DNA of 37,560 nucleotides from a virus. Lineage: Duplodnaviria > Caudoviricetes. The translations under genes were made by a program, and so were the position numbers. Under the pieces are notes generated by a model. The model had not been told where the DNA came from. It did no database searches and was given only the letters and a program-made list of their open reading frames with translations. The DNA lies in IMG/VR virus record IMGVR_UViG_3300017909_001655, positions 1-37,560 of that record; one strand, given 5' to 3'. Shown piece by piece: positions 2 to 36,514 of this stretch. Positions within the stretch are counted from its first letter, which is position 1; the number at the start of each line of letters is the position of its first letter.

Positions 2-703
2 TTATTGTCGACAACAACCATTTTCGCTGATACTGATGATAACGAAATTATAATCACTCAAACTGGTGATACACTTAAGTTATATATTGACCAAGAAGGT
101 TTTGGAAACAAGATAGGAGGTAATGACTTCTCATCTTCCGGGACTGCAATGTTAATAACTGGTGCTACACTAGAGTTTGATTTAGATTTTACTGGTAATT
201 CAAATATTTTATTTGGTCCAGTCACCGCTGATAACTCAATTTATAAGTTAGATTTTACTGGTGATTCAAACCAAATCGATTGGAGCGTTGGCAGTACAGG
301 CAGTTCAGACGATTCTGATATAAACTTTAGTGTAACTGGTTCAAGTAATACTTTTGACTTAGACCAAGGTACAGCTTTTAGTGCAGAACGTTTAAACGCT
401 GATTTAATTGTCATTGGAAGTTCAAACATATTTGACGTCGATTGGGAAAGTGACGATGTAATTTGGAACTGGGATATAACCGGTGCTTCAAATAACATTA
501 ATACTTTACAAAAAGATGGCGCAAATGAAATGACTGTAGAGTTAAATGGTGATAGTGCCGATGTAGATATTAACCAAATATCAGGAACATGCGCAGTTTC
601 TAGTAGTGGGTGTGCTACACCAAATGCTATCATAACTTTGGATATTACAAGTGATAATTCGACAATTCAAATTAATCAGAAAGATTCAGCTAGCGATAGT
701 TAG
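2..703 (+). CDS. Secreted curlin-like beta-solenoid repeat protein (5' truncated by window edge)
   Basis: Frame is open from position 2 (LLSTTTIFA-D looks like the end of a signal peptide). ~22-aa repeats of type xDxxGxxNxxxxxQ (IDQEGFGNKI, FTGNSNIL, FTGDSNQI, VTGSSNTF, ITGASNNI). C-terminal Cys pair CAVSSSGC. Confidence 0.7.
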   Translation, partial: LLSTTTIFADTDDNEIIITQTGDTLKLYIDQEGFGNKIGGNDFSSSGTAMLITGATLEFDLDFTGNSNILFGPVTADNSIYKLDFTGDSNQIDWSVGSTGSSDDSDINFSVTGSSNTFDLDQGTAFSAERLNADLIVIGSSNIFDVDWESDDVIWNWDITGASNNINTLQKDGANEMTVELNGDSADVDINQISGTCAVSSSGCATPNAIITLDITSDNSTIQINQKDSASDS

Positions 704-1808
704 TTTATTTTTATCAATAGGGTTTGTTTATGCAGACCCTATTGGTGATATCGTTGAATCGACTGGTGTAGGAAAAATAGTCAGACAACAAGAAGAGATT
801 GTTGTATCTGGTGCAGTACTTCCTATAGAATTATATGATAGAGCTGAAACTGCGATGGGTAGTATGCTTATTGAGTTTATCGATAACGCAGAGTTAGCAT
901 TAAAAGAGCATACTGAAGTTTATATCGATGAGATATATTACGACCCAGACCCTAACCTTTCAAAGATGAGTATGAGAATGGTTATGGGAACTGCAAGGTT
1001 TGCATCAGGTTCCAAAGGGTTAATTAATAAAGCAAACATAGATATACAAACACCTACAGCAACAATTGGTATAAGAGGCACAGACTTTACCACAACAATA
1101 GATGAATTGGGAAGAAGCCTTATAGTACTATTACCTGATATAAATGGTGACCCGTCTGGTGAAATCAGTGTATCGAATATGGCGGGTACTGTAATATTAA
1201 ATCAACCTTACCAAGCAACAATGGTAAGTACAATGGATTCTAATCCTACAAGTCCTGTGACTATTAATGGTTTAACACCTAGTATGATTGATAATATGTT
1301 TATTGTTAATCCACCAAGTGAAGTTAAACAAGCCATTGAGGAACAAGCAAAGGATGACCAGGACCAAGACACTGGTATGTTGGATGTAGATTTTTTAGAG
1401 TTCAACGAATTAGAACAAGATGCTTTAGCTGATAGTGAAGAAGATTTAGAATTTAGTGAGTTAGATATTGACTTATTAGATGTAGATTTCTTAAGAGATT
1501 TATTAGATGTAGTTGAAGCTTTAGAGAAAACAAGGGTTGTTCTCGCGGACGTACAAGCGAGCGCAGGAGGAAACTTAAGTGGATTTAGATTAAAAGGTGC
1601 TCAAGTAGGATTTAATAAAGATTCACAATTTAATGTATTCGAACAAGATGGTAATTTAGTATTCTTTCGTAGTGTAAATGGAATTATAAATATTATCATA
1701 GGTGCAGGTGGTAGCGGATTTATAGATGTAGTTACCAACGATTATGAAGGCATAATGCAATTTAATGACGGGGATGGGATTGAAATATATATTCGACAAA
1801 TTAATTAA
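651..1808 (+). CDS. Secreted/periplasmic FecR-domain protein with acidic repeat C-terminus
   Basis: Signal peptide (RKIQLAIVSLFLSIGFVYA-D), FecR-domain motif TPTATIGIRGTDF, acidic LDVDFL repeats. The GTG start overlaps the upstream gene by 53 nt. Confidence 0.8.
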   Translation: MIIRQFKLIRKIQLAIVSLFLSIGFVYADPIGDIVESTGVGKIVRQQEEIVVSGAVLPIELYDRAETAMGSMLIEFIDNAELALKEHTEVYIDEIYYDPDPNLSKMSMRMVMGTARFASGSKGLINKANIDIQTPTATIGIRGTDFTTTIDELGRSLIVLLPDINGDPSGEISVSNMAGTVILNQPYQATMVSTMDSNPTSPVTINGLTPSMIDNMFIVNPPSEVKQAIEEQAKDDQDQDTGMLDVDFLEFNELEQDALADSEEDLEFSELDIDLLDVDFLRDLLDVVEALEKTRVVLADVQASAGGNLSGFRLKGAQVGFNKDSQFNVFEQDGNLVFFRSVNGIINIIIGAGGSGFIDVVTNDYEGIMQFNDGDGIEIYIRQIN

Positions 1809-1824
1809 TAGAGATAATTTAGAA

Positions 1825-2634
1825 ATGGCAGTATTGTTTCTAATATTTTTTATATCACTGGTAGGAATATCACCAGTGGTTTATGCTGGTCCTAGTGATG
1901 ATAATCATGTCCATGTAGAACAAGTAAATATGGGTGATAACTTTGATTTAACTATCGACCAATTTGGTTTTGGTAATATGATTAGATTCTCAGCAGACCA
2001 TGATAATAATACATTAAACTTATTACAAGTTGGAAATAATATGTATATCGGATATACAGATGATTGGGGTTCAGGTTATACTTGGGGCGGTGATTTAGAT
2101 GGTTTAGGAAATGAAGTTGATATAAGACAAAAATGTTCAGCTTCTAGTTGTAATGATAATGATTTTCAATTTCATATATGGGGTGATGACAATCAAGTTG
2201 TATTTGGCCAAGGTTACGAAAATGGAAATACCTTAACACCTAACTGGAGTTATGATGGTACTGAACCAGGTGGAAACTATGTAAGACTAGATATACATGG
2301 CAATGATAATCAATTTAAAGGTAGTCAAAAACAAGATTCAAGTTCTATAAATCATTCAATCATAGCAAATATATATGCAGATAATAATGATGTATATGTA
2401 AAACAAATGCAAAATGGAAATAAAACTCTTAACTTAACAATTTATAATGATTGGAATGAAGTGGATATAGTTCAAAAGAAGACTGGAGCTCACACTGCTA
2501 CAATCACATTAAATGGAACATATCCTACAGATTTATTTTTAACTCAAACTGGAAGCACAACACAATCATATACTTTATCTCAAAATTGTGTGACGGTGAG
2601 TGGATGTTCAGTAAGTATTACCCAAGGTAATTAG
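1825..2634 (+). CDS. Second secreted curlin-like beta-solenoid repeat protein
   Basis: Signal peptide ending VVYA-G. Q-x-G-x-x-N repeats (IDQFGFGNMI, LLQVGNNM, IHGNDNQF, KQMQNGNK). Cys pairs CSASSC and CVTVSGC. Start may instead be 1765 or 1774. Confidence 0.7.
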   Translation: MAVLFLIFFISLVGISPVVYAGPSDDNHVHVEQVNMGDNFDLTIDQFGFGNMIRFSADHDNNTLNLLQVGNNMYIGYTDDWGSGYTWGGDLDGLGNEVDIRQKCSASSCNDNDFQFHIWGDDNQVVFGQGYENGNTLTPNWSYDGTEPGGNYVRLDIHGNDNQFKGSQKQDSSSINHSIIANIYADNNDVYVKQMQNGNKTLNLTIYNDWNEVDIVQKKTGAHTATITLNGTYPTDLFLTQTGSTTQSYTLSQNCVTVSGCSVSITQGN

Positions 2635-2655: not shown

Positions 2656-4515
2656 ATGAAATATATAACATCAATATGGGCGAGTATAATACTTTGTATT
2701 ACACTTTTAGGAATTAGATTATGGGACCCAATCTTAGTTGAACAAATAAGATTAAATGTCTTTGACCAATATATCAAATCACTTCCAGAAAAAGAATCAA
2801 ACGATATTGTCTTATTAAATATAGGAGAAGTATCTCTAGAAGAAATAGGTCAATACCCTTGGCCAAGACAAAATTACGCACAAATAATATCTGACCTTCG
2901 TAACGCTGGTGCAGGTATGATTGTATTTAGTATAATGTTTCCAGAGAACGATAGGTTCGGTGGCGATAAGGTATTCGCATCTTGGATAAAAGATAATGGA
3001 ATCATTCTCGCACAGGACGCGGACAGTCGTGGACGTGACACACGTGCGCCGTACGTGGGGTATGCTACATTTGGAAATACTGATCCGTTAGATTTTATAT
3101 ATCGATATCAAGGTTTAGTGACTAATATAGAAGAGTTAGAATCACAAGCTTGGGGTGTAGGATTAATTAATGCAGCCCCAGAAGTAGATAACATAACAAG
3201 AAGAATACCACTTATATCTCAAATTAATGGTGAGTTATATCCTTCGTTAGCTTTAGAAACAGTGAGAGCAATACAAAATAAAAAGAGTTATACAATTAAA
3301 ACAAACGAAGCAGGTATAGAAGGTATTGTATTAAGACCTTTTGATTTACCAACAGATTCAGATGGAAGTATATGGTTAAAATGGAATAGTAAGTTTACTG
3401 AGTACGAGTATGGTGAAAAGACTATGCATGGTTTAAATCCAATACCAGATTTGAATGGACAAACAGTTATAATAGGAGTCACAGCAAAAGGATTAGCAAA
3501 TCAAATACCAACACCGGGAGGTTTGTTATATCCACATCAATTACAAGCAAACGCTTTACAAACAATAATATCAGATAATCCAATCTCACGACCTGTTTGG
3601 ACTACGTCAGTTGAATTAATAATAATGGGTATTGGTGGATTGATTATAATACTATCGATGTATTATCTACCGATATGGATATCTGGTCTGTTATTTACAG
3701 CTTTGTCAGCTGGTTCTGGTTATCTCAGCTGGACATTGTGGTCCGACTCGCAGATACTCCTTGACCTTAGTTATATACTAATATTATATATACTTTTACT
3801 AACTTCAACGGGCTTTAATAATTTCTATAAACAATTTGTATTAAGACAACAAATACAAAAACAATTTGGTACTTATGTATCTCCTGATTTAGTTAAACAA
3901 TTACAAAAGAATCCTGAGTTATTAAAACTTGGTGGTGAAAGAAAAGAAATGACATTTATGTTTATGGACATATGTGGATTTACACCAATCTCAGAACACT
4001 ATAAAAATAACGATGACCCAGAAGGATTAGTTATCCTTATAAATAATTATCTAGATACAATGACAAAAATCGTTCTTAAGAACGGTGGAACAATAGATAA
4101 GTTTATGGGTGATTGTATTATGGCTTTTTGGAATGCACCTTTACCATGTAAAGACCATGCTGATAAAGCTGTACAAACATCAATAGAAATATGTGAGGCA
4201 GCAGATGAACTTATACAAGAACTTAAAGACAAAGGTTTACCTACTATTGATATCGGCATTGGTATTAATACCGGCACATGCATTGTCGGAAACATGGGAT
4301 CTGAAGCTAGATTTGACTATTCCGTCATTGGAGATGCCGTCAACCTTGGGGCTAGACTCGAGGGACAAACAAGAAATTATGATGGGGTTCGAGTGTTGTT
4401 GGGACCAGAAACTTATAGAAGCTGTACATCGAGAGCATTCGCTGAAGTCGATAGAATCACTGTCAAAGGAAAGACAGAGGCCGTCACCATATACACTCCG
4501 ATTCGAACTAGCTGA
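2656..4515 (+). CDS. CHASE2-domain membrane class III adenylate cyclase
   Basis: N-terminal TM, CHASE2 motifs (GQYPWPR, DNITRRIPL, VIIGVTA, HQLQANALQTI), 3 TM helices, then catalytic motifs FMDICGFT, IDKFMGDCIMAFW, IGIGINTG, RFDYSVIGDAVNLGARLEG. K and D specificity residues indicate ATP as substrate. Confidence 0.92.
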   Translation: MKYITSIWASIILCITLLGIRLWDPILVEQIRLNVFDQYIKSLPEKESNDIVLLNIGEVSLEEIGQYPWPRQNYAQIISDLRNAGAGMIVFSIMFPENDRFGGDKVFASWIKDNGIILAQDADSRGRDTRAPYVGYATFGNTDPLDFIYRYQGLVTNIEELESQAWGVGLINAAPEVDNITRRIPLISQINGELYPSLALETVRAIQNKKSYTIKTNEAGIEGIVLRPFDLPTDSDGSIWLKWNSKFTEYEYGEKTMHGLNPIPDLNGQTVIIGVTAKGLANQIPTPGGLLYPHQLQANALQTIISDNPISRPVWTTSVELIIMGIGGLIIILSMYYLPIWISGLLFTALSAGSGYLSWTLWSDSQILLDLSYILILYILLLTSTGFNNFYKQFVLRQQIQKQFGTYVSPDLVKQLQKNPELLKLGGERKEMTFMFMDICGFTPISEHYKNNDDPEGLVILINNYLDTMTKIVLKNGGTIDKFMGDCIMAFWNAPLPCKDHADKAVQTSIEICEAADELIQELKDKGLPTIDIGIGINTGTCIVGNMGSEARFDYSVIGDAVNLGARLEGQTRNYDGVRVLLGPETYRSCTSRAFAEVDRITVKGKTEAVTIYTPIRTS

Positions 4516-4822
4516 TCCTCCTGGACCAGCTGAATGGGCAACCTTTGCATTATTCCAAGCACTTGATGTGTGGACTACTAGAGAAGGAACTAAATACGAC
4601 TGTGTAAGAGAAGCAAATCCACTTTTCTCAGATAAGCCATCAACAAGTAGTTTAATATGGACTAAAGTTGCTTTAATTACTCCAGCCGTTCAATATGATT
4701 TAAAACGTGGTACCCTATCTAAAAAGGGTATGCAATCAATGAATAATATAATGTACATTGTATTATATAATAATTTTCATATACTCAATAAAGCTAAGAG
4801 ATATTGTACTAAAATAAATTAA
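4205..4822 (+). CDS. Putative exported/membrane protein, overprinted on the cyclase 3' end (+1 frame); C-terminus resembles the DUF5658-like LDxxTT...EANP membrane domain
   Basis: GAGG at 4195-4198 is 6 nt before ATG 4205. Classical signal peptide (MNLYKNLKTKVYLLLISALVLIPAHA). The ORF fills the otherwise empty 4516-4822 interval, which has no early in-frame ATG. Confidence 0.7.
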   Translation: MNLYKNLKTKVYLLLISALVLIPAHALSETWDLKLDLTIPSLEMPSTLGLDSRDKQEIMMGFECCWDQKLIEAVHREHSLKSIESLSKERQRPSPYTLRFELADPPGPAEWATFALFQALDVWTTREGTKYDCVREANPLFSDKPSTSSLIWTKVALITPAVQYDLKRGTLSKKGMQSMNNIMYIVLYNNFHILNKAKRYCTKIN

Positions 4823-4850: not shown

Positions 4851-4880
4851 GTTTACAAATGCAGAAAAACGGTGTATAAT
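4851..4880 (+). promoter_or_regulatory. T4-type early (sigma70) promoter
   Basis: GTTTACA (TTTACA 4852-4857), 17-nt spacer, TATAAT 4875-4880, A-tract upstream. Confidence 0.85.
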
Positions 4881-5356: not shown

Positions 5357-5409
5357 TGCAGGAGAGAATTGTTACAGTTGTGTAACAATTGTGTAACAAT
5401 TCACCTGCA
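5357..5409. promoter_or_regulatory. Operator-like repeat array: 3x GTWAC at 11-bp period inside a larger inverted repeat
   Basis: GTTAC 5371, GTAAC 5382, GTAAC 5393. Direct repeat TGTGTAACAAT x2 (5379-5400). Inverted repeat AATTGTTACA-GTTG-TGTAACAATT (5367-5390). Outer arms TGCAGG/CCTGCA. Confidence 0.7.
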
Positions 5410-5412
5410 ACC

Positions 5413-5442
5413 GTTTACAAACGCGTCGAACTTTGGTATAAT
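5413..5442 (+). promoter_or_regulatory. T4-type early (sigma70) promoter with extended -10
   Basis: TTTACA 5414-5419, 17-nt spacer, TGG-TATAAT with the -10 at 5437-5442. Confidence 0.85.
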
Positions 5443-5472
5443 ATACATATAATTTTTTGATAAGGAGTTAAA

Positions 5473-11357: not shown

Positions 11358-11385
11358 AAAGGGACTCGAAAGGGTCCCTTTTTTT
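11358..11385 (+). terminator. Rho-independent terminator (probably bidirectional)
   Basis: AAA-GGGACTC-GAAA-GGGTCCC-T7 between converging gp32 and tape-measure genes. Confidence 0.88.
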
Positions 11386-13198
11386 ATCTGCCTGTTACGC
11401 CTTCAAGAGCAAGTCTTGATGGGTTAGGTTGTACAGCCATAATTGTAGTTGCTGCTTGAGAAGATGTATTGTTTGTTATATTAGCACCCATAACTTGTGT
11501 TCCACTGGCTCCAGCTGTAGCAGCTATTTGAGCAGCTGATGTTTCATCACCTAGGGCTGTTAAATCTGTTCCTGTCGTAACGTCAGGTATTTCAATACCT
11601 TCTGGTAAATCAGTAATGCCTTCGGCTTCAGCTTGTTCTTGAATTTCTTTATCTCTTTTCTCTTGTGCTAATCGAGCTTTTGTTTCTTCTTTAAACTTAC
11701 CAGCTCTTCCTGTTTCTAATCCTTCACCTAAGAAAGAATCAACCATATCACCAACTTCATCTCCAAATAACCACCTAGCTAATCTACCTCCACCAAGGAA
11801 TTCAAATATCTTACGTGGTAAGAATGTGATACCGTTTACTAACATGGATAAACCATCAATAAGATATAATGCTCCAAGTTTTAAAGTATCCATTACAGTT
11901 GCGCCTTCACCAAGAGTACTTTTAAGATACATGAAAGCACCAGCTATGACAGCTATGACAGCAACAATAGGTAATATTGGAATCAAAACAGCACCTAAAC
12001 CAGCTAACATACTACTTAGAGTTGATAACATACTTGGTATAAATGTACTTAACATAAATGTTCTGAATGTTTTAACCATTTTTACTAATTTAGCTAACTT
12101 ACCAAATAAACCACCAAATGCAGTTATGAGAGGACCACCGAAGTATAATGCTAATCCTAATACTAATCCACCAAATAAGAATATATTATCTCCAATCTTT
12201 TGTTTTGCTGTTTCAAAATCACCGGTGACAAAAGCTACTAAACCTTCAACTATCTCTAAGAATCCAGTTACGAAATTTTGTATTATTTCACTTAATAGTT
12301 CTGGGTCAACTACACCAATAACTAATCCTATTAGACCTGCTAATAAACCACCAGTTTTAACTGCGCTTTGACCAAAATTACCAAGCTTATCTCCGAATCC
12401 ACTGATAGAGTCACCTATTTTTGTAAGTTGACTAGATTGAAGTTCAGCTGCCTTTTGAGCTTCTCTTGATTTTTCTCTATCGGTAGTTGCGTCAAGTAAT
12501 TCTTGTCGCATTACATTACTTTGTTCCTGCGTAACTAAACCATCTTTCTCCATTTGCTGAATATCAGATAATCTATTATTGAACTCAGTAAAAGCTGGAT
12601 CGATTTTACCTCCAAATGTAGGACCTAATTGCTTTAAAGCTTTTTCAATCATATCATCATTTACTTCATTAGCTTTTTGACCTTCTTTTAAGTTATCTAC
12701 AAAACTTTTAAATCCTTCTGATTGTGTTGCTATTTGTTGGGCATTTAATTCTTTACCTTGGTCAATAAGATTTTGTATTTTAGTAGCATCATTTGCTGCA
12801 GCATTGATTATATTAGTACCAACTTTATTGGTGGCACCAGTTAAATTTTTAAGAGTACCATCTTGTTTAAATATGGCTTTTCGTGTTGATTCAATTTGTT
12901 CATCAATTTGATTAGCAGTTTCTATTTGGCCTGAAGCTCTTAACTCATCTGCAGCAATTTTTTGTTCTTGAAGTGTTTTGACAGTTTCATTCAGAGTCAA
13001 AGTCTTTTTAGCTGAAATAGCTAGTTGTGATGTCTTTGCTAAATTTTCTTTATTTACTTTAGCATTTTCTTTAAGACTAGTATTTTGATAAGTGTTAGCA
13101 ACTTCAGCCTTTTTAGCAGCATCTTGCTGCGACTTTATTAAAGCTTGTTGACTATCCTTTATTATCTTACCGGGCTTTTTATCTGAATCTTCTGCCAT
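11384..13198 (-). CDS. Probable tape measure protein (gp29-like)
   Basis: 604 aa, N-terminal helical/coiled coil, central hydrophobic Gly/Ala segments, C-terminal NNTSS tail. Downstream of gp26/gp51. Confidence 0.65.
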   Translation of the reverse strand: MAEDSDKKPGKIIKDSQQALIKSQQDAAKKAEVANTYQNTSLKENAKVNKENLAKTSQLAISAKKTLTLNETVKTLQEQKIAADELRASGQIETANQIDEQIESTRKAIFKQDGTLKNLTGATNKVGTNIINAAANDATKIQNLIDQGKELNAQQIATQSEGFKSFVDNLKEGQKANEVNDDMIEKALKQLGPTFGGKIDPAFTEFNNRLSDIQQMEKDGLVTQEQSNVMRQELLDATTDREKSREAQKAAELQSSQLTKIGDSISGFGDKLGNFGQSAVKTGGLLAGLIGLVIGVVDPELLSEIIQNFVTGFLEIVEGLVAFVTGDFETAKQKIGDNIFLFGGLVLGLALYFGGPLITAFGGLFGKLAKLVKMVKTFRTFMLSTFIPSMLSTLSSMLAGLGAVLIPILPIVAVIAVIAGAFMYLKSTLGEGATVMDTLKLGALYLIDGLSMLVNGITFLPRKIFEFLGGGRLARWLFGDEVGDMVDSFLGEGLETGRAGKFKEETKARLAQEKRDKEIQEQAEAEGITDLPEGIEIPDVTTGTDLTALGDETSAAQIAATAGASGTQVMGANITNNTSSQAATTIMAVQPNPSRLALEGVTGR

Positions 13199-32767: not shown

Positions 32768-35700
32768 ATGCCACAGAATAGCGAAACAAGAATATTAACA
32801 TCAAATACTCTCGAACAGTTTAGACAAAAATCTAATGATATATCTTTAGATGTTGGTGATAATAAATTAATTGACTCTAGAATATTAGATAAAACAAAAA
32901 CATTTACTGCTGCAGCATCACAAACACTATTTGAAAGTGGTTCAATGAGATATGAATATAAATCTGAAGAAACATTAGATAACATATCTCATTCAGAAGC
33001 ATTACCAGTAGGAAGAGTAAGAGTATATAACGGAAGTACTGAACTTACTCAAGCTTTATCTGGTACAAATACTTTCAGAACACCAAATTATGTAGCAAAC
33101 ATTGCTTTAACTGGTTCACCTACACTTACAGAATTTGTAGAAAATGTAGAAGTATATCAAGCATCATCAGCACAAACTGATTTAACTGCATCAGCAGTCA
33201 CATTTAGAGGTAAGGTATTATCTGCTTCAGTGGCCGATGGTGTTAGATTAAAATCAGAATCAGGTACTTATAACGCAAGTGCAGCTTTAAGAGTTCACCC
33301 AGGCACAAGTGGTAATAGTACAAGTACAGATACTATTTTAGCATCACAACATACAGGTAAAACTTCAATTGATACTACGTACGGTAGAATTATTCAATTA
33401 AATAGTGGAGCTTCAAATGGTGATGTTATTAAAGTTGTATCTCATTCATTAGTAGATGCAATTAACGAAGTACAAGATGATGTTGGTGATATAACATCAT
33501 TAAATACAAATACAACTGCAGATATAGTAGCATCAATTAATGAATTAGAACTTGGTATAAGAGGTACAAGTAATAATTTAGTTGCATCTGATTTATCAGG
33601 CATGTCAGCAAATAATGTTGTATCAGCCATATTAGAACATGAAACAGACATAGGTAATATGTCACTTAACGTAGCAGCTAGCAATTTAACTGGTGCTATA
33701 AACGAATTGGAAGCTGATTTATTTAATGCAGAAGGTAGTGATAAAAGAACACTTAATAGTTTACTTACAACAGATAAAACATCAATCGTAGATGCTATAA
33801 ATGAAGTACACGATGATGCATTAGCAAGTGTTAAATTAGTTTCATCAAGTACACAAACATTTAATTCAAATTTAGTATTTGGAACATCAGGAAAAACATT
33901 TACTTTTAACTCAGGAACCACATTAGATTTAAGCCAAGCTTCTCTAGTAATTGGTGCAGGTGGAGAAAACCTAGCATTTAATACTGCATTCTTAGCACTT
34001 ACAGCAAATGATAATAGTAATACTGCTGTAAATAGATTAGGACTAGAAGTAAGAAGAGCTGGTTCTGGAGCAGATGCTAAATTACAATGGAACGAAGTAG
34101 ACCAAGTAAGTTCTAATCCTGCTCGAGCGTGGCAATTAGTAGGGTTAAACGATAGTGGTGCTTCAAATACTGCTGATATTGTCACGTTCTATAACGCAAA
34201 AGAATTATTTGCAAATAATACAGAAACAGGTATTTCAGTAGATTGGGATGCTTCAAATGAAAACTTTGATATTGTATTAACTCAAGACCCAACAATTACA
34301 TTAGGTGGAGACTTAGGTGGTTCATTAACAATGACCAACCTTGCAGGTGGAACATTAACTGCAACAATTCAAGCTGGTTCAGTTGAGAATAGTATGTTAG
34401 CAGGTTCGATTACAGCTGCTAAATTAGCTGGTTCAATACCTAATAGTAAATTATCAAATTCATCTTTTGAATTAGATGCAGATTCTGGTACAACAAACTC
34501 AGTAAATCTTGGAGAAACATTATCCATAATAGGTACATCTGGAGAAGTAGAAACTTCAGTAAGTGGAAATGCTGTCACAGTTGGTTTACCAAGTGATGTC
34601 ACAATAGGAAATGATTTAACAGTCACAGGTGATTTAATAGTTCAAGGCGATACCGTCACATTAAATACATCAACATTACAAGTTGAAGATACATTAGTAT
34701 TAATGGGTAATAGTGGTACACTACCAACAACTGGTGGATTTGGATTAGAAACAAGATTATTTAGTGGAAGAGCTAACCAAACAATTAACAATAGAACTTG
34801 GGATAGTACTGGTAAACATCCAGGAGCAGCTTCAAACGTAACTGGTTCTCACTCTATTGTATTTAACTTTGCATATGACCCAGGTAGTGGACAACCAAAA
34901 GGTAGATGGGAAATGGATGGTTCACCATTACTTTCAGCAGCTACTGCAGGTACTCCACAGATTGAAGGTCAATCGTTTGGAACAGGAGATAACTTAGTAT
35001 TCTCAGCAGGCACTGGATTAAGTGAAACAGTAGTAAACTCAAGTGGTACAAATACAGTCACATATACAAATACAGATTTAGGTTCATCACAAAATATATT
35101 TAAAAATGTTTCAGCTGATAGTGGTACAAACGCTGTAGCTGATTCTAATAATGATACATTACAAATTTTAGGTGGAACAGCTTTAGCATCAGTAGGTGAT
35201 GCAAGTAATGATAGAATAACTATTAATCACTCAGACGTTGGAGCTGGTGCAGCAACTTATGGACAAACCGGTTCAGAAGATGGTCAATATATTAAATCAA
35301 TAATTGTAAATGCTCAAGGTCACGTAACTGCAGTTACGTCTGATGATTTCGATAACAGATATGATAACTATGGAAGTTGGTCATTAACAGCTGACTCAGG
35401 TGGTACTGCAACAATTAGTACTGGTAATACAGTAGATATTCAAGGCGGTACAGCACTTACAACCACAAGGTCAGGCGATAATATTTCAATCGCATTGGAT
35501 AACACATCGGTATCAGCAGCTGCGTATGGAGGTAATTTACAATTTAATACCTTTACTGTAGATGCTCAAGGTAGATTAACAGCAGCAGGAAATGGTTCGA
35601 CATTAAGTGCAACAGGATTAATTGGGTTATCTAACAGTGGTGTGATATCAACATCTGCAGATAATTATAGTCATTGGAATTTTACAACAGATACATCTGG

Positions 35701-36514
35701 TACTGAAACAGTCACAAGTCAAGATACCGTCACAATACAAGGTGGTACTGGTATTACTGTATCACACAGCGGTGATGTTATAACAATTACAGAAGATGTA
35801 CCAAACTCAGATACAAATACGAGAACTCAAATTTTAGCAGATTCTGGAGGTGGTACTAACTTTAGTGGAACCACTAATAACCAGGTTACGATTAGGGGTG
35901 GCACATCTATAAGTACATCATTCAGTGCTGGTGTTGTCACAGTCACTAACCTCGCCCCTGACCAAACAGTATCATTATCAGGTAGTGGAGCAACAAGTGT
36001 TAGTGGTACATATCCAAACTTTACAATCAGTTCAACAGATAATAATACACAGTACTCGGGTACAAACGGAGTAGCTCTAACTGGTACAACAAATTCAAGT
36101 GGCCATTTATTATTTGATTTATCAAATACTTATACACCAGCTGGTGGTACATATACCATCACTGGTGAGATTAGAGCAACAGGTGATGTTGTAGCTTTTG
36201 CATCAGATGATAGATTAAAAGATAAAGGCGATAACATTGAGAACGCTTTAGATAAAGTTAAACAATTAAATGGATTCCATTTTAACTGGAATCAATTAGC
36301 ATCAGATTTACAAATTGGTAAAACTGATAGAGATATGGTTGGTGTAAGTGCACAGGAAGTAGAAAAAGTATTACCTGAAGCTGTTTCACCAGCACCAGCT
36401 GATGAAGAATATAAAACAGTTCAATATGAAAAATTAGTTCCTTTATTAATTGAAGCAATTAAAGATTTAAATGCTGAAATAGAAGAACTAAAAAGTATAA
36501 ATAAAAAGGTATAG
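32768..36514 (+). CDS. Tail fibre protein with C-terminal intramolecular chaperone (peptidase S74)
   Basis: N-terminal TLEQFRQKSN, repeated SxVxAINE and ADSG modules, GDVVAFASDDRLK...GVSAQEVEKVLPEAV...LLIEAIKDL. Confidence 0.88.
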   Translation: MPQNSETRILTSNTLEQFRQKSNDISLDVGDNKLIDSRILDKTKTFTAAASQTLFESGSMRYEYKSEETLDNISHSEALPVGRVRVYNGSTELTQALSGTNTFRTPNYVANIALTGSPTLTEFVENVEVYQASSAQTDLTASAVTFRGKVLSASVADGVRLKSESGTYNASAALRVHPGTSGNSTSTDTILASQHTGKTSIDTTYGRIIQLNSGASNGDVIKVVSHSLVDAINEVQDDVGDITSLNTNTTADIVASINELELGIRGTSNNLVASDLSGMSANNVVSAILEHETDIGNMSLNVAASNLTGAINELEADLFNAEGSDKRTLNSLLTTDKTSIVDAINEVHDDALASVKLVSSSTQTFNSNLVFGTSGKTFTFNSGTTLDLSQASLVIGAGGENLAFNTAFLALTANDNSNTAVNRLGLEVRRAGSGADAKLQWNEVDQVSSNPARAWQLVGLNDSGASNTADIVTFYNAKELFANNTETGISVDWDASNENFDIVLTQDPTITLGGDLGGSLTMTNLAGGTLTATIQAGSVENSMLAGSITAAKLAGSIPNSKLSNSSFELDADSGTTNSVNLGETLSIIGTSGEVETSVSGNAVTVGLPSDVTIGNDLTVTGDLIVQGDTVTLNTSTLQVEDTLVLMGNSGTLPTTGGFGLETRLFSGRANQTINNRTWDSTGKHPGAASNVTGSHSIVFNFAYDPGSGQPKGRWEMDGSPLLSAATAGTPQIEGQSFGTGDNLVFSAGTGLSETVVNSSGTNTVTYTNTDLGSSQNIFKNVSADSGTNAVADSNNDTLQILGGTALASVGDASNDRITINHSDVGAGAATYGQTGSEDGQYIKSIIVNAQGHVTAVTSDDFDNRYDNYGSWSLTADSGGTATISTGNTVDIQGGTALTTTRSGDNISIALDNTSVSAAAYGGNLQFNTFTVDAQGRLTAAGNGSTLSATGLIGLSNSGVISTSADNYSHWNFTTDTSGTETVTSQDTVTIQGGTGITVSHSGDVITITEDVPNSDTNTRTQILADSGGGTNFSGTTNNQVTIRGGTSISTSFSAGVVTVTNLAPDQTVSLSGSGATSVSGTYPNFTISSTDNNTQYSGTNGVALTGTTNSSGHLLFDLSNTYTPAGGTYTITGEIRATGDVVAFASDDRLKDKGDNIENALDKVKQLNGFHFNWNQLASDLQIGKTDRDMVGVSAQEVEKVLPEAVSPAPADEEYKTVQYEKLVPLLIEAIKDLNAEIEELKSINKKV
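36496..36503 (+). promoter_or_regulatory. T4 late promoter
   Basis: TATAAATA 16 nt before ATG 36520. Confidence 0.7.

What the first reader, a model, noticed from the sequence alone, without database searches (positions are those of the whole stretch)
4205..4822. Gene overprinted for 311 nt on the catalytic core of the adenylate cyclase
Seen: a +1-frame ORF starts at ATG 4205 with a GAGG SD and a textbook signal peptide (K-rich n-region, VYLLLISALVLI, AHA cleavage site). It stays open through the most conserved cyclase motifs. In the overlap the cyclase switches to ATT/ATC/GTC/CTC/GGC/GCC codons and avoids NTA+purine, which would create +1 stops and is common elsewhere in the gene. That is a dual-coding signature. 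The non-overlapping half has no early ATG, so it needs this start. A TATAAATA at 4038-4045 could give it a late transcript (weak evidence). Inference: a genetically inseparable partner or regulator of the cyclase.
Basis: partly seen in the sequence, partly recalled or inferred. Interest (0 to 1): 0.8.

Follow-up and report, generated by a model that had tools for sequence, protein, structure and literature searches.

The report
Exported protein overprinted on phage cyclase
In this marine T4-like phage the last 311 bases of an adenylate cyclase gene also hold, in a second reading frame that its closest relatives keep open and conserved, the first half of a separate protein that is predicted to be exported and likely partners the cyclase, and stand-alone copies of this protein in other phages carry motifs that were likely born inside that overlap.

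Summary
Confirmed. The +1 frame over the cyclase's last ~100 codons has 0 stops in 7,856 codons of 82 related phage loci; ~8 per gene are expected. Cyclases without the gene have them. Selection acts on +1 amino acids (Cys-Cys 77/77; expected ~16%). An ATG (75/77), a Shine-Dalgarno-like site, a charge-free hydrophobic core and, in this sub-lineage, a T4 late-promoter motif (27/27) are kept.

The host operon is the published phage curli-FecR-cyclase module; I found no paper on this gene. It is not inseparable from the cyclase. HTVC008M and Melnitz lack it. Podovirus-like, myovirus and jumbo-phage loci carry free-standing homologues directly upstream of the cyclase. These share LDLTIP or G..CCY motifs with the overlap, and LDLTIP is encodable at only one site of the cyclase's shifted frames, so the motifs were probably born in the overlap and later exported. 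Other lineages keep only a nested 45-89 aa hydrophobic +1 ORF.

Best guess: a periplasmic partner of the cyclase's CHASE2 sensor. Translation and binding are untested. The scan noted this overlap earlier in other genomes (e1-5850972, e1-5879317, e1-8128223).

The parts
2656..4515 (+). Membrane receptor adenylate cyclase (CHASE2 + class III catalytic domain), ancestral frame
   Evidence: Pfam CHASE2 4.9e-42, Guanylate_cyc 5e-19; 45.7% identical to HTVC008M cyclase
4205..4822 (+). Overprinted gene X, 205 aa, +1 frame relative to the cyclase
4205..4515 (+). Dual-coding stretch (311 nt): cyclase residues 517-619 / X residues 1-104
   Evidence: 0 +1 stops in 7,856 codons of 82 loci; four-fold-site difference 0.33-0.41 inside vs 0.60 outside
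4195..4198 (+). Shine-Dalgarno-like GAGG
   Evidence: GGAG/GAGG/AGGA in 38 of 75 relatives, 13.5 expected from synonymous shuffles
4038..4045 (+). T4-type late promoter motif inside the cyclase gene (function inferred; consensus TATAAAT as quoted in PMC9004378)
   Evidence: 27 of 77 relatives vs 5.0 expected; 27 of 27 in the window's sub-lineage
4205..4282 (+). Predicted Sec signal peptide, residues 1-26, cleavage after AHA (by inspection; no SignalP available)
   Evidence: h-region hydropathy 2.22 vs 1.15 in stop-free shuffles, charged residues 0.00 vs 1.18, polar c-region -0.01 vs 1.11
4307..4324 (+). LDLTIP motif (X 35-40), the +1 reading of cyclase ARFDYS; shared with free-standing homologues
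4385..4399 (+). G..CC motif (X 61-65), the +1 reading of cyclase GVRVL; shared with other free-standing homologues
   Evidence: CC 77 of 77 vs 0.17 and 0.15 expected, G 76 of 77 vs 0.11
4514..4819 (+). Non-overlapping three-helix DUF5658-like domain (X 104-205), invariant D121, P145, K154, N190; predicted C133-C201 disulfide
   Evidence: Pfam E 8e-4, below cut-off; AlphaFold pLDDT 96.9, pTM 0.85; the two Cys present or absent together in 149 of 158 sequences
651..1808 (+). FecR-domain protein of the same module
   Evidence: Pfam FecR 9.7e-8
1765..2634 (+). Second curlin-like protein (by position in the module; no Pfam curlin hit)
   Evidence: same order as Melnitz gp101-104
2..703 (+). First curlin-like protein, cut by the window start
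   Evidence: Pfam Curlin_rpt E 0.002, below cut-off

Best explanation
The 3' end of the cyclase gene is under selection in two reading frames, and the second frame likely yields, from its own start, a Sec-exported periplasmic protein that likely binds the cyclase's periplasmic CHASE2 sensor and would tune its cAMP output. Shown: the open frame, amino-acid selection in it, and the conserved ATG, SD-like site, signal-peptide features and (in this sub-lineage) late-promoter motif. Shown: homologues lie next to the cyclase in all informative loci, and the C-domain is far more variable than the cyclase and recombines against it. Inferred: translation, cleavage after residue 26, a periplasmic location with a disulfide, and action on CHASE2 as a phage-specific, allele-variable adaptor. 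Inferred history: the hydrophobic +1 shadow of the catalytic GIGINTG strand gave a ready-made membrane-targeting peptide; read-through past the cyclase stop joined it to the DUF5658-like domain; copies were later moved out of the overlap. Odds: real dual coding about 0.95; exported protein about 0.85; acts on the cyclase sensor about 0.4.
For: Stops. Tree-aware count: 0 of 170 third-base changes at risk columns create a +1 stop, against 189 of 262 outside the overlap and 178 of 294 in the same region of HTVC008M-like cyclases. Stops run up to cyclase codon 519 and cease at the ATG. ATG at codon 514/517/520 in 75 of 77. Signal features. Neighbourhood: free-standing homologue directly upstream of the cyclase in L165, L230, L327, L343 and L345. 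In L345 it stays with the cyclase although unrelated genes separate it from the FecR and curlin genes. 18 of 18 loci L325-L342 (some the same contig) have FecR and/or the cyclase beside it, 12 both. Variability: mean identity of the C-domain is 0.35, CHASE2 0.48, catalytic 0.76; C-domain identity tracks CHASE2 (rho 0.32) slightly better than the adjacent catalytic part (0.18-0.21).
Against: No proteomics or ribosome profiling. The RNA runs were contigs only and covered 11 of 30 bins at low identity. The CHASE2 correlation is weak and pairs are not independent; some pairs share >60% C-domain identity with only 32-39% CHASE2 identity. HTVC008M and Melnitz have the module but no match to the C-domain profile (positive control), so the cyclase works without it there. 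SD-like sites occur in only about half, and the promoter motif in 27 of 77. C-domain helices are only mildly hydrophobic (best 19-residue mean 0.99), so soluble versus membrane-bound is open. The 80 relatives were the best 80 of 594 by similarity to a query that includes the overlap, so they do not measure prevalence.
Confidence: 0.45

Rival explanations
1. X is a real exported protein but serves the curli pore side of the module, as cargo, cap or CsgE-like gate of CsgG, or as a partner of the FecR protein. LDLTIP would be a short targeting strand.
For: In podovirus-like loci X lies between FecR and the cyclase. LDLT-like strings also occur in the FecR proteins of L327 and L230. PMC9599517 notes that the phage modules lack CsgE (passage).
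Against: In L345 X is separated from FecR and curlin genes but abuts the cyclase. X is helical, unlike curlins. Many homologues lack LDLTIP.
Confidence: 0.22
2. X is a periplasmic lysis-timing or superinfection-control protein (antiholin-like, as T4 RI, recalled), using the module only as a genomic home.
For: Late-promoter motif. Hypervariable, swapped C-domain. In L327 spanin-like and lysozyme-like ORFs follow the cyclase (by inspection). A small gene upstream of CsgF in L326 has a weak holin hit, E 0.0019. PMC9004378 proposes a lysis role for the curli genes (passage).
Against: No PHROG match for X. No lysis genes were identified next to X in the window. Its constant neighbour is the cyclase.
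Confidence: 0.18
3. The +1 frame is entered by programmed frameshifting from the cyclase, giving a CHASE2-TM-half-catalytic fusion with an alternative C-terminus.
For: The open frame starts within the catalytic domain and runs past the cyclase stop.
Against: The open stretch begins at an ATG with SD enrichment, in several loci directly after a +1 stop (L039, L051, L054, L072). It has signal-peptide features. Free-standing homologues have their own signal peptides.
Confidence: 0.07
4. The open frame is a by-product of codon bias or of a sequencing indel, and only the downstream domain is a gene.
For: 6 of 79 genome-collection cyclases are stop-free in this region, all GC-rich (0.66-0.72). The hydrophobic shadow exists without selection.
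Against: 0 of 21 low-GC controls and 0 of 79 HTVC008M-like cyclases are open. Both frames are intact in 80 of 80 relatives. Amino-acid selection in +1. No ATG for the downstream half until residue 176.
Confidence: 0.03

Closest known systems
Phage T8SS (curli)-FecR-adenylate cyclase module of pelagiphages and Melnitz (PMC9599517, PMC7029224, PMC9004378; records KC465899, MZ577097)
   Same: Same gene order: curlin, FecR, curlin, CHASE2 cyclase.
   Different: The passages I read list HK, CsgF, CsgG, CsgA/B, FecR and AC. They mention no DUF5658-like gene and no overlap. Both cultured phages lack X.
De novo overlapping extensions by overprinting, e.g. phiX174 genes A and C, hepadnavirus S (PMC8227390, passages)
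   Same: A newer +1 frame laid on an older gene, as a terminal overlap that extends a protein.
   Different: Here the ancestral frame is the catalytic core of an enzyme shared with bacteria. The genome is a large dsDNA phage. The new part supplies a signal peptide, and free-standing copies share its motifs.
Spanin pair Rz/Rz1
   Same: Phage envelope genes found embedded, overlapped or separate in different phages.
   Different: No lipobox (AHA|L, no Cys at +1). The host gene is a cyclase, not a coiled-coil i-spanin. No PHROG match.
Sinorhizobium meliloti CyaD1 locus with FecR protein SMc02177 and periplasmic SMc02178 (PMC5498481, passages)
   Same: A receptor-like cyclase flanked by a FecR-domain gene and a signal-peptide protein of unknown function.
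   Different: No sequence link was tested. No C-domain hit in 80 bacterial cyclase loci. That paper found the neighbours not needed for signal perception.
Pfam DUF5658 (PF18902)
   Same: Weak match over the D..T / E.NP region; 81 of 118 family members match at E<=0.01.
   Different: Below the curated cut-off (20.6 vs 25.2 bits), covering profile 2-59 of 82. No paper in the library names the family.

Membership tests
Overprinted (dual-coding) gene pair | Alternative frame kept open beyond chance across diverged homologues | tested here: met
Overprinted (dual-coding) gene pair | Selection on amino acids of the alternative frame and reduced synonymous variation | tested here: met
   CC, G, P, S far above null; 0.33-0.41 vs 0.60
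Overprinted (dual-coding) gene pair | Newer frame has the narrower distribution | tested here: met
   Full frame in 0 of 80 clade-B, 0 of 80 HTVC008M-like and 0 of 80 genome-collection loci
Overprinted (dual-coding) gene pair | Both proteins shown to be expressed | not testable with these tools
   Only contig-level RNA runs
Phage curli-FecR-cyclase module | Curlin, FecR and cyclase genes in order | tested here: met
Phage curli-FecR-cyclase module | CsgF and CsgG upstream | not testable with these tools
   The contig starts inside the first curlin gene; G000 is the window only
DUF5658 (PF18902) | Score at or above gathering cut-off 25.2 bits | tested here: not met
   18.6 and 20.6 bits; some relatives carry the precomputed label
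DUF5658 (PF18902) | Shared core motif region | tested here: met
   E 8e-4 for the window; 81 of 118 members, best 1.4e-6; atlas clusters with 11% and 22% DUF5658 members
Sec/SPase I exported protein | Basic n-region, uncharged hydrophobic core, small residues at -3/-1 | tested here: met
   (own feature test, not SignalP; n-region charge is barely above null, 2.01 vs 1.75)
Rz/Rz1 spanins | Outer-membrane lipoprotein with lipobox nested in or after an i-spanin | tested here: not met
   No Cys at the cleavage site; host gene is a cyclase
Any solved fold family | Clear structural match | tested here: inconclusive
   Best Z 7.1, rmsd 3.3 over 84 residues, within background for helical bundles

The most novel reading that the evidence does not exclude
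A protein half was born de novo in the +1 frame of an enzyme's catalytic core and then escaped the overlap. The nested 45-89 aa hydrophobic ORF in other phage cyclases is a second selected product of the same frame. In this clade the frame became the signal peptide and N-domain of an exported protein. Free-standing genes in podovirus-like, myovirus and jumbo phages inherited its LDLTIP and G..CCY motifs. The product is a missing, allele-variable component of the widespread phage curli-FecR-cyclase system.
Probability: 0.5. Interest if true: 0.82.

Novelty: new variant of a known kind. Interest (0 to 1): 0.7.

Why it matters
It is a statistically clean, long dual-coding region on the catalytic core of an enzyme in large dsDNA phages, with natural controls: cyclases without the frame, cyclases with a short nested frame, and free-standing copies. 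That series makes two questions testable: how a new frame is born on a constrained gene, and whether overprinted sequence can be freed from its host gene. It also adds an unreported component to an ocean-wide phage module whose function is unknown. Gene callers often truncate the protein (many database entries start at internal codons), which hides its signal peptide.

Tried and rejected
Complex prediction of X with cyclase residues 1-395: the queue was full, no job ran, so binding is untested. Fold searches gave no Foldseek match at E<=0.001 in PDB for the whole model or the domain, only one uncharacterised viral protein, and Z<8 in the wide search. KcsA and PIP-synthase rows were rejected as generic helical matches. 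No PDB sequence hit and no PHROG hit. tblastn of X in 50,697 phage records found nothing. P0293 had no viral locus. Reads: no usable expression evidence; one contig has a compensated +1/-1 indel pair at 4427/4432. Relic cyclase frames in 10 free-standing genes: none seen. The C-domain tree cannot give a direction, with 98 columns and recombination. The cyclase tree (110 rows sampled from about 320, 127 columns) shows full, nested and absent states interspersed and the outgroup not monophyletic, so no order of events is claimed from it. The profile found no match in 4 incomplete SAR86 genomes or 3 partial phage contigs; this is not evidence of absence. Literature: 'DUF5658' gave 0 papers; overlapping gene + overprint + bacteriophage + adenylate cyclase gave 0; overlapping genes + overprinting + duplication + decoupl + phage gave 0. 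Supplements were not opened; Data Set S1F of PMC9599517 lists module compositions and could include this gene unnamed.

Full report
Setting. The window is a T4-like phage contig (helicase loader, SSB and baseplate genes). The runs that hold the stretch are seawater, estuary and salt-marsh metagenomes. It begins with curlin-like, FecR and curlin-like genes, then a CHASE2 adenylate cyclase at 2656-4515. This is the order in HTVC008M and Melnitz and the module described in PMC9599517 (I read matched passages only).

Observation. A 205-aa ORF runs from ATG 4205 to 4822 in the +1 frame and overlaps the cyclase by 311 nt. The best 80 of 594 confirmed viral relatives of the catalytic domain (72-95% identity) all keep the +1 frame open for at least 290 nt before the cyclase stop. 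The 75 with enough flanking DNA continue 250-337 nt beyond it. Over cyclase codons 521-620 there are 0 +1 stops in 7,856 codons of 82 loci, against 0.03-0.18 per codon in every upstream bin. Of 21 low-GC controls from the genome collection (at least two probably phage contigs) none is open, mean 7.6 stops; 6 of 79 overall are open, all GC-rich. Codon-usage nulls expect 8.0 stops per sequence. On a tree, 0 of 170 third-base changes at risk columns make a stop inside the overlap, versus 189 of 262 outside, and 178 of 294 in the same region of HTVC008M-like cyclases. A sequencing indel is excluded because both frames are intact in all relatives.

Protein-level selection. In 77 unique sequences the +1 frame keeps Cys-Cys in 77 (expected 0.17 and 0.15), Gly in 76 (0.11), Pro in 71 (0.09) and Ser in 72 (0.09). 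Four-fold-site difference drops from 0.60 to 0.33-0.41. Stops are common up to cyclase codon 519 and then cease. An ATG lies at codon 514, 517 or 520 in 75 of 77, with an SD-like 4-mer in 38 of 75 (13.5 expected). The hydrophobic core is partly the automatic shadow of GIGINTG, seen also in bacteria. Against stop-free shuffles, however, it is more hydrophobic (2.22 vs 1.15), free of charges (0.00 vs 1.18) and followed by a polar region (-0.01 vs 1.11); the n-region charge is close to null. TATAAATA at 4038 is not enriched in the window but is kept in 27 of 27 sequences of the window's sub-lineage and in 0 of 30 of another that could encode it. It is therefore a lineage-specific candidate late promoter.

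The protein. The non-overlapping domain folds as three helices with high confidence (pLDDT 96.9); the full model is uncertain in the N-half (pTM 0.46). No fold relative was found. It resembles DUF5658 below cut-off. Two cysteines are present or absent together in 149 of 158 sequences by a crude pattern count, and the model bridges their neighbours, which suggests a disulfide and an oxidising compartment. The domain is the most variable part of the locus (mean identity 0.35; as low as 0.18 between phages with 93% catalytic identity).

Distribution. 0 of 80 loci found with the L083 cyclase and 0 of 80 found with the HTVC008M cyclase have the full frame. Two of the former carry a free-standing homologue directly upstream of the cyclase. 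A profile search found 498 representatives and another 407 proteins. Free-standing homologues with their own signal peptides lie between FecR and the cyclase in podovirus-like loci and directly upstream of a distant cyclase in jumbo-phage loci. HTVC008M and Melnitz have no match. Overlapped and free forms are interspersed on the C-domain tree: 23 changes, 7 forced by well-supported branches, 185 rows; short or unclassifiable rows were dropped, and labels for database proteins were inferred from sequence.

Origin. The best 120 of the 407 proteins, close relatives of one podovirus-like protein and so not independent, start their mature chain with LDLTIP in 96 cases. In the window LDLTIP is the +1 reading of ARFDYS. 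It can be encoded without changing the cyclase at exactly one site in the +1 and +2 frames, the real one. Of 4,000 random 6-mers, 99 fit anywhere in +1 and 5 fit in codons 540-565. Other free-standing homologues carry the G..CCY motif, and a profile of the overlap part scores them (P0317 5e-13, P0293 6e-10, L343 9e-5, in a search of about 80 sequences), although their residues are incompatible with an intact cyclase. P0317 has both motifs and PST at the overlap's spacing; its DNA context was not seen. Since RFDYS and AVN are old cyclase motifs shared with bacteria, birth in the overlap followed by export is the simpler reading. It is an inference: the trees do not fix direction, no relic cyclase frame was seen, and the cyclase loop under CC is variable and could have adapted to an older motif.

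A nested relative. In the L083-like set, 55 of 76 have a +1 ATG at the same codon and 52 of these run 50 aa or more; 43 of 76 have no stop over codons 521-572 (0.61 expected). Their hydrophobic stretch continues through the cleavage region (2.54 vs 1.42), as for an uncleaved anchor. Melnitz (0 stops, 2.7 expected) and jumbo loci (0-1, 4.1-5.2 expected) show a similar frame; podovirus-like and HTVC008M cyclases do not. These few loci are individually weak. This ORF may be a stepping stone, a sister product or a retained relic.

Mechanism. I commit to an exported periplasmic partner of the CHASE2 sensor (about 0.45 overall), because the cyclase is its constant neighbour and the only periplasmic part of the cyclase is CHASE2 (established domain architecture). 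Rivals are a role at the curli pore or FecR, a lysis or superinfection role, and frameshifting. Binding is untested: the complex-prediction queue was full.

Known versus new. The module is published. Overprinting and terminal +1 extensions are known (PMC8227390, passages). Searches for this gene or overlap in print found nothing (passages); supplements were not opened. Earlier notes of this scan report the same overlap in other genomes; I saw them after my own tests. Their listed text does not mention the free-standing forms or the nested ORF. Verdict: real, unpublished as far as searched, a new variant of a known kind; interest 0.7.

Noticed in passing
L165:2799-2984, L230:2799-3050, L083 (same frame position), L164 (Melnitz cyclase), L343-L348: Short +1 ORF (45-89 aa, basic N-terminus, ~20-residue hydrophobic stretch) nested wholly inside the cyclase of lineages that lack the full overlap; unannotated in Melnitz.
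   Followed up: partly
window 5371-5397: GTTAC-N6-GTAAC palindrome with TTGTGTAACAA repeats just upstream of a sigma-70-like promoter; the same palindrome precedes similar promoters in 7 of 82 close loci. Not above chance within the window alone. Possible operator.
   Followed up: partly
window 4852-4880 and about 5416-5444: Two near-identical TTTACA-17-TATAAT early-type promoters after the module (for the first, for the second); the first marks the end of the module's operon.
   Followed up: no
window 2656-4515 versus L084-L164: Most bacterial and Melnitz-type cyclases have a roughly 70-90 aa C-terminal tail that this phage clade, clade B and HTVC008M-like cyclases lack.
   Followed up: no
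L345:2199-4767: Two paralogous 408-456 aa secreted-looking proteins (CxxCH-like motif, His-rich) are inserted inside the module between the curlin gene and X in a 340-kb phage; not identified.
   Followed up: no
L326:473-1014: The two small genes upstream of CsgF match phrog_18771; one has a weak holin hit (E 0.0019). They may be the genes called histidine kinases in PMC9599517.
   Followed up: no
L083, L091: Contigs in bacterial MAGs whose cyclases group with phage cyclases; probably phage DNA in the bins.
   Followed up: partly
window 11826-12371 (+) within 11384-13198 (-); 33442-34185 (-) within 32768-36514 (+): Long antisense ORFs (181 and 247 aa) inside larger genes; not tested.
   Followed up: no
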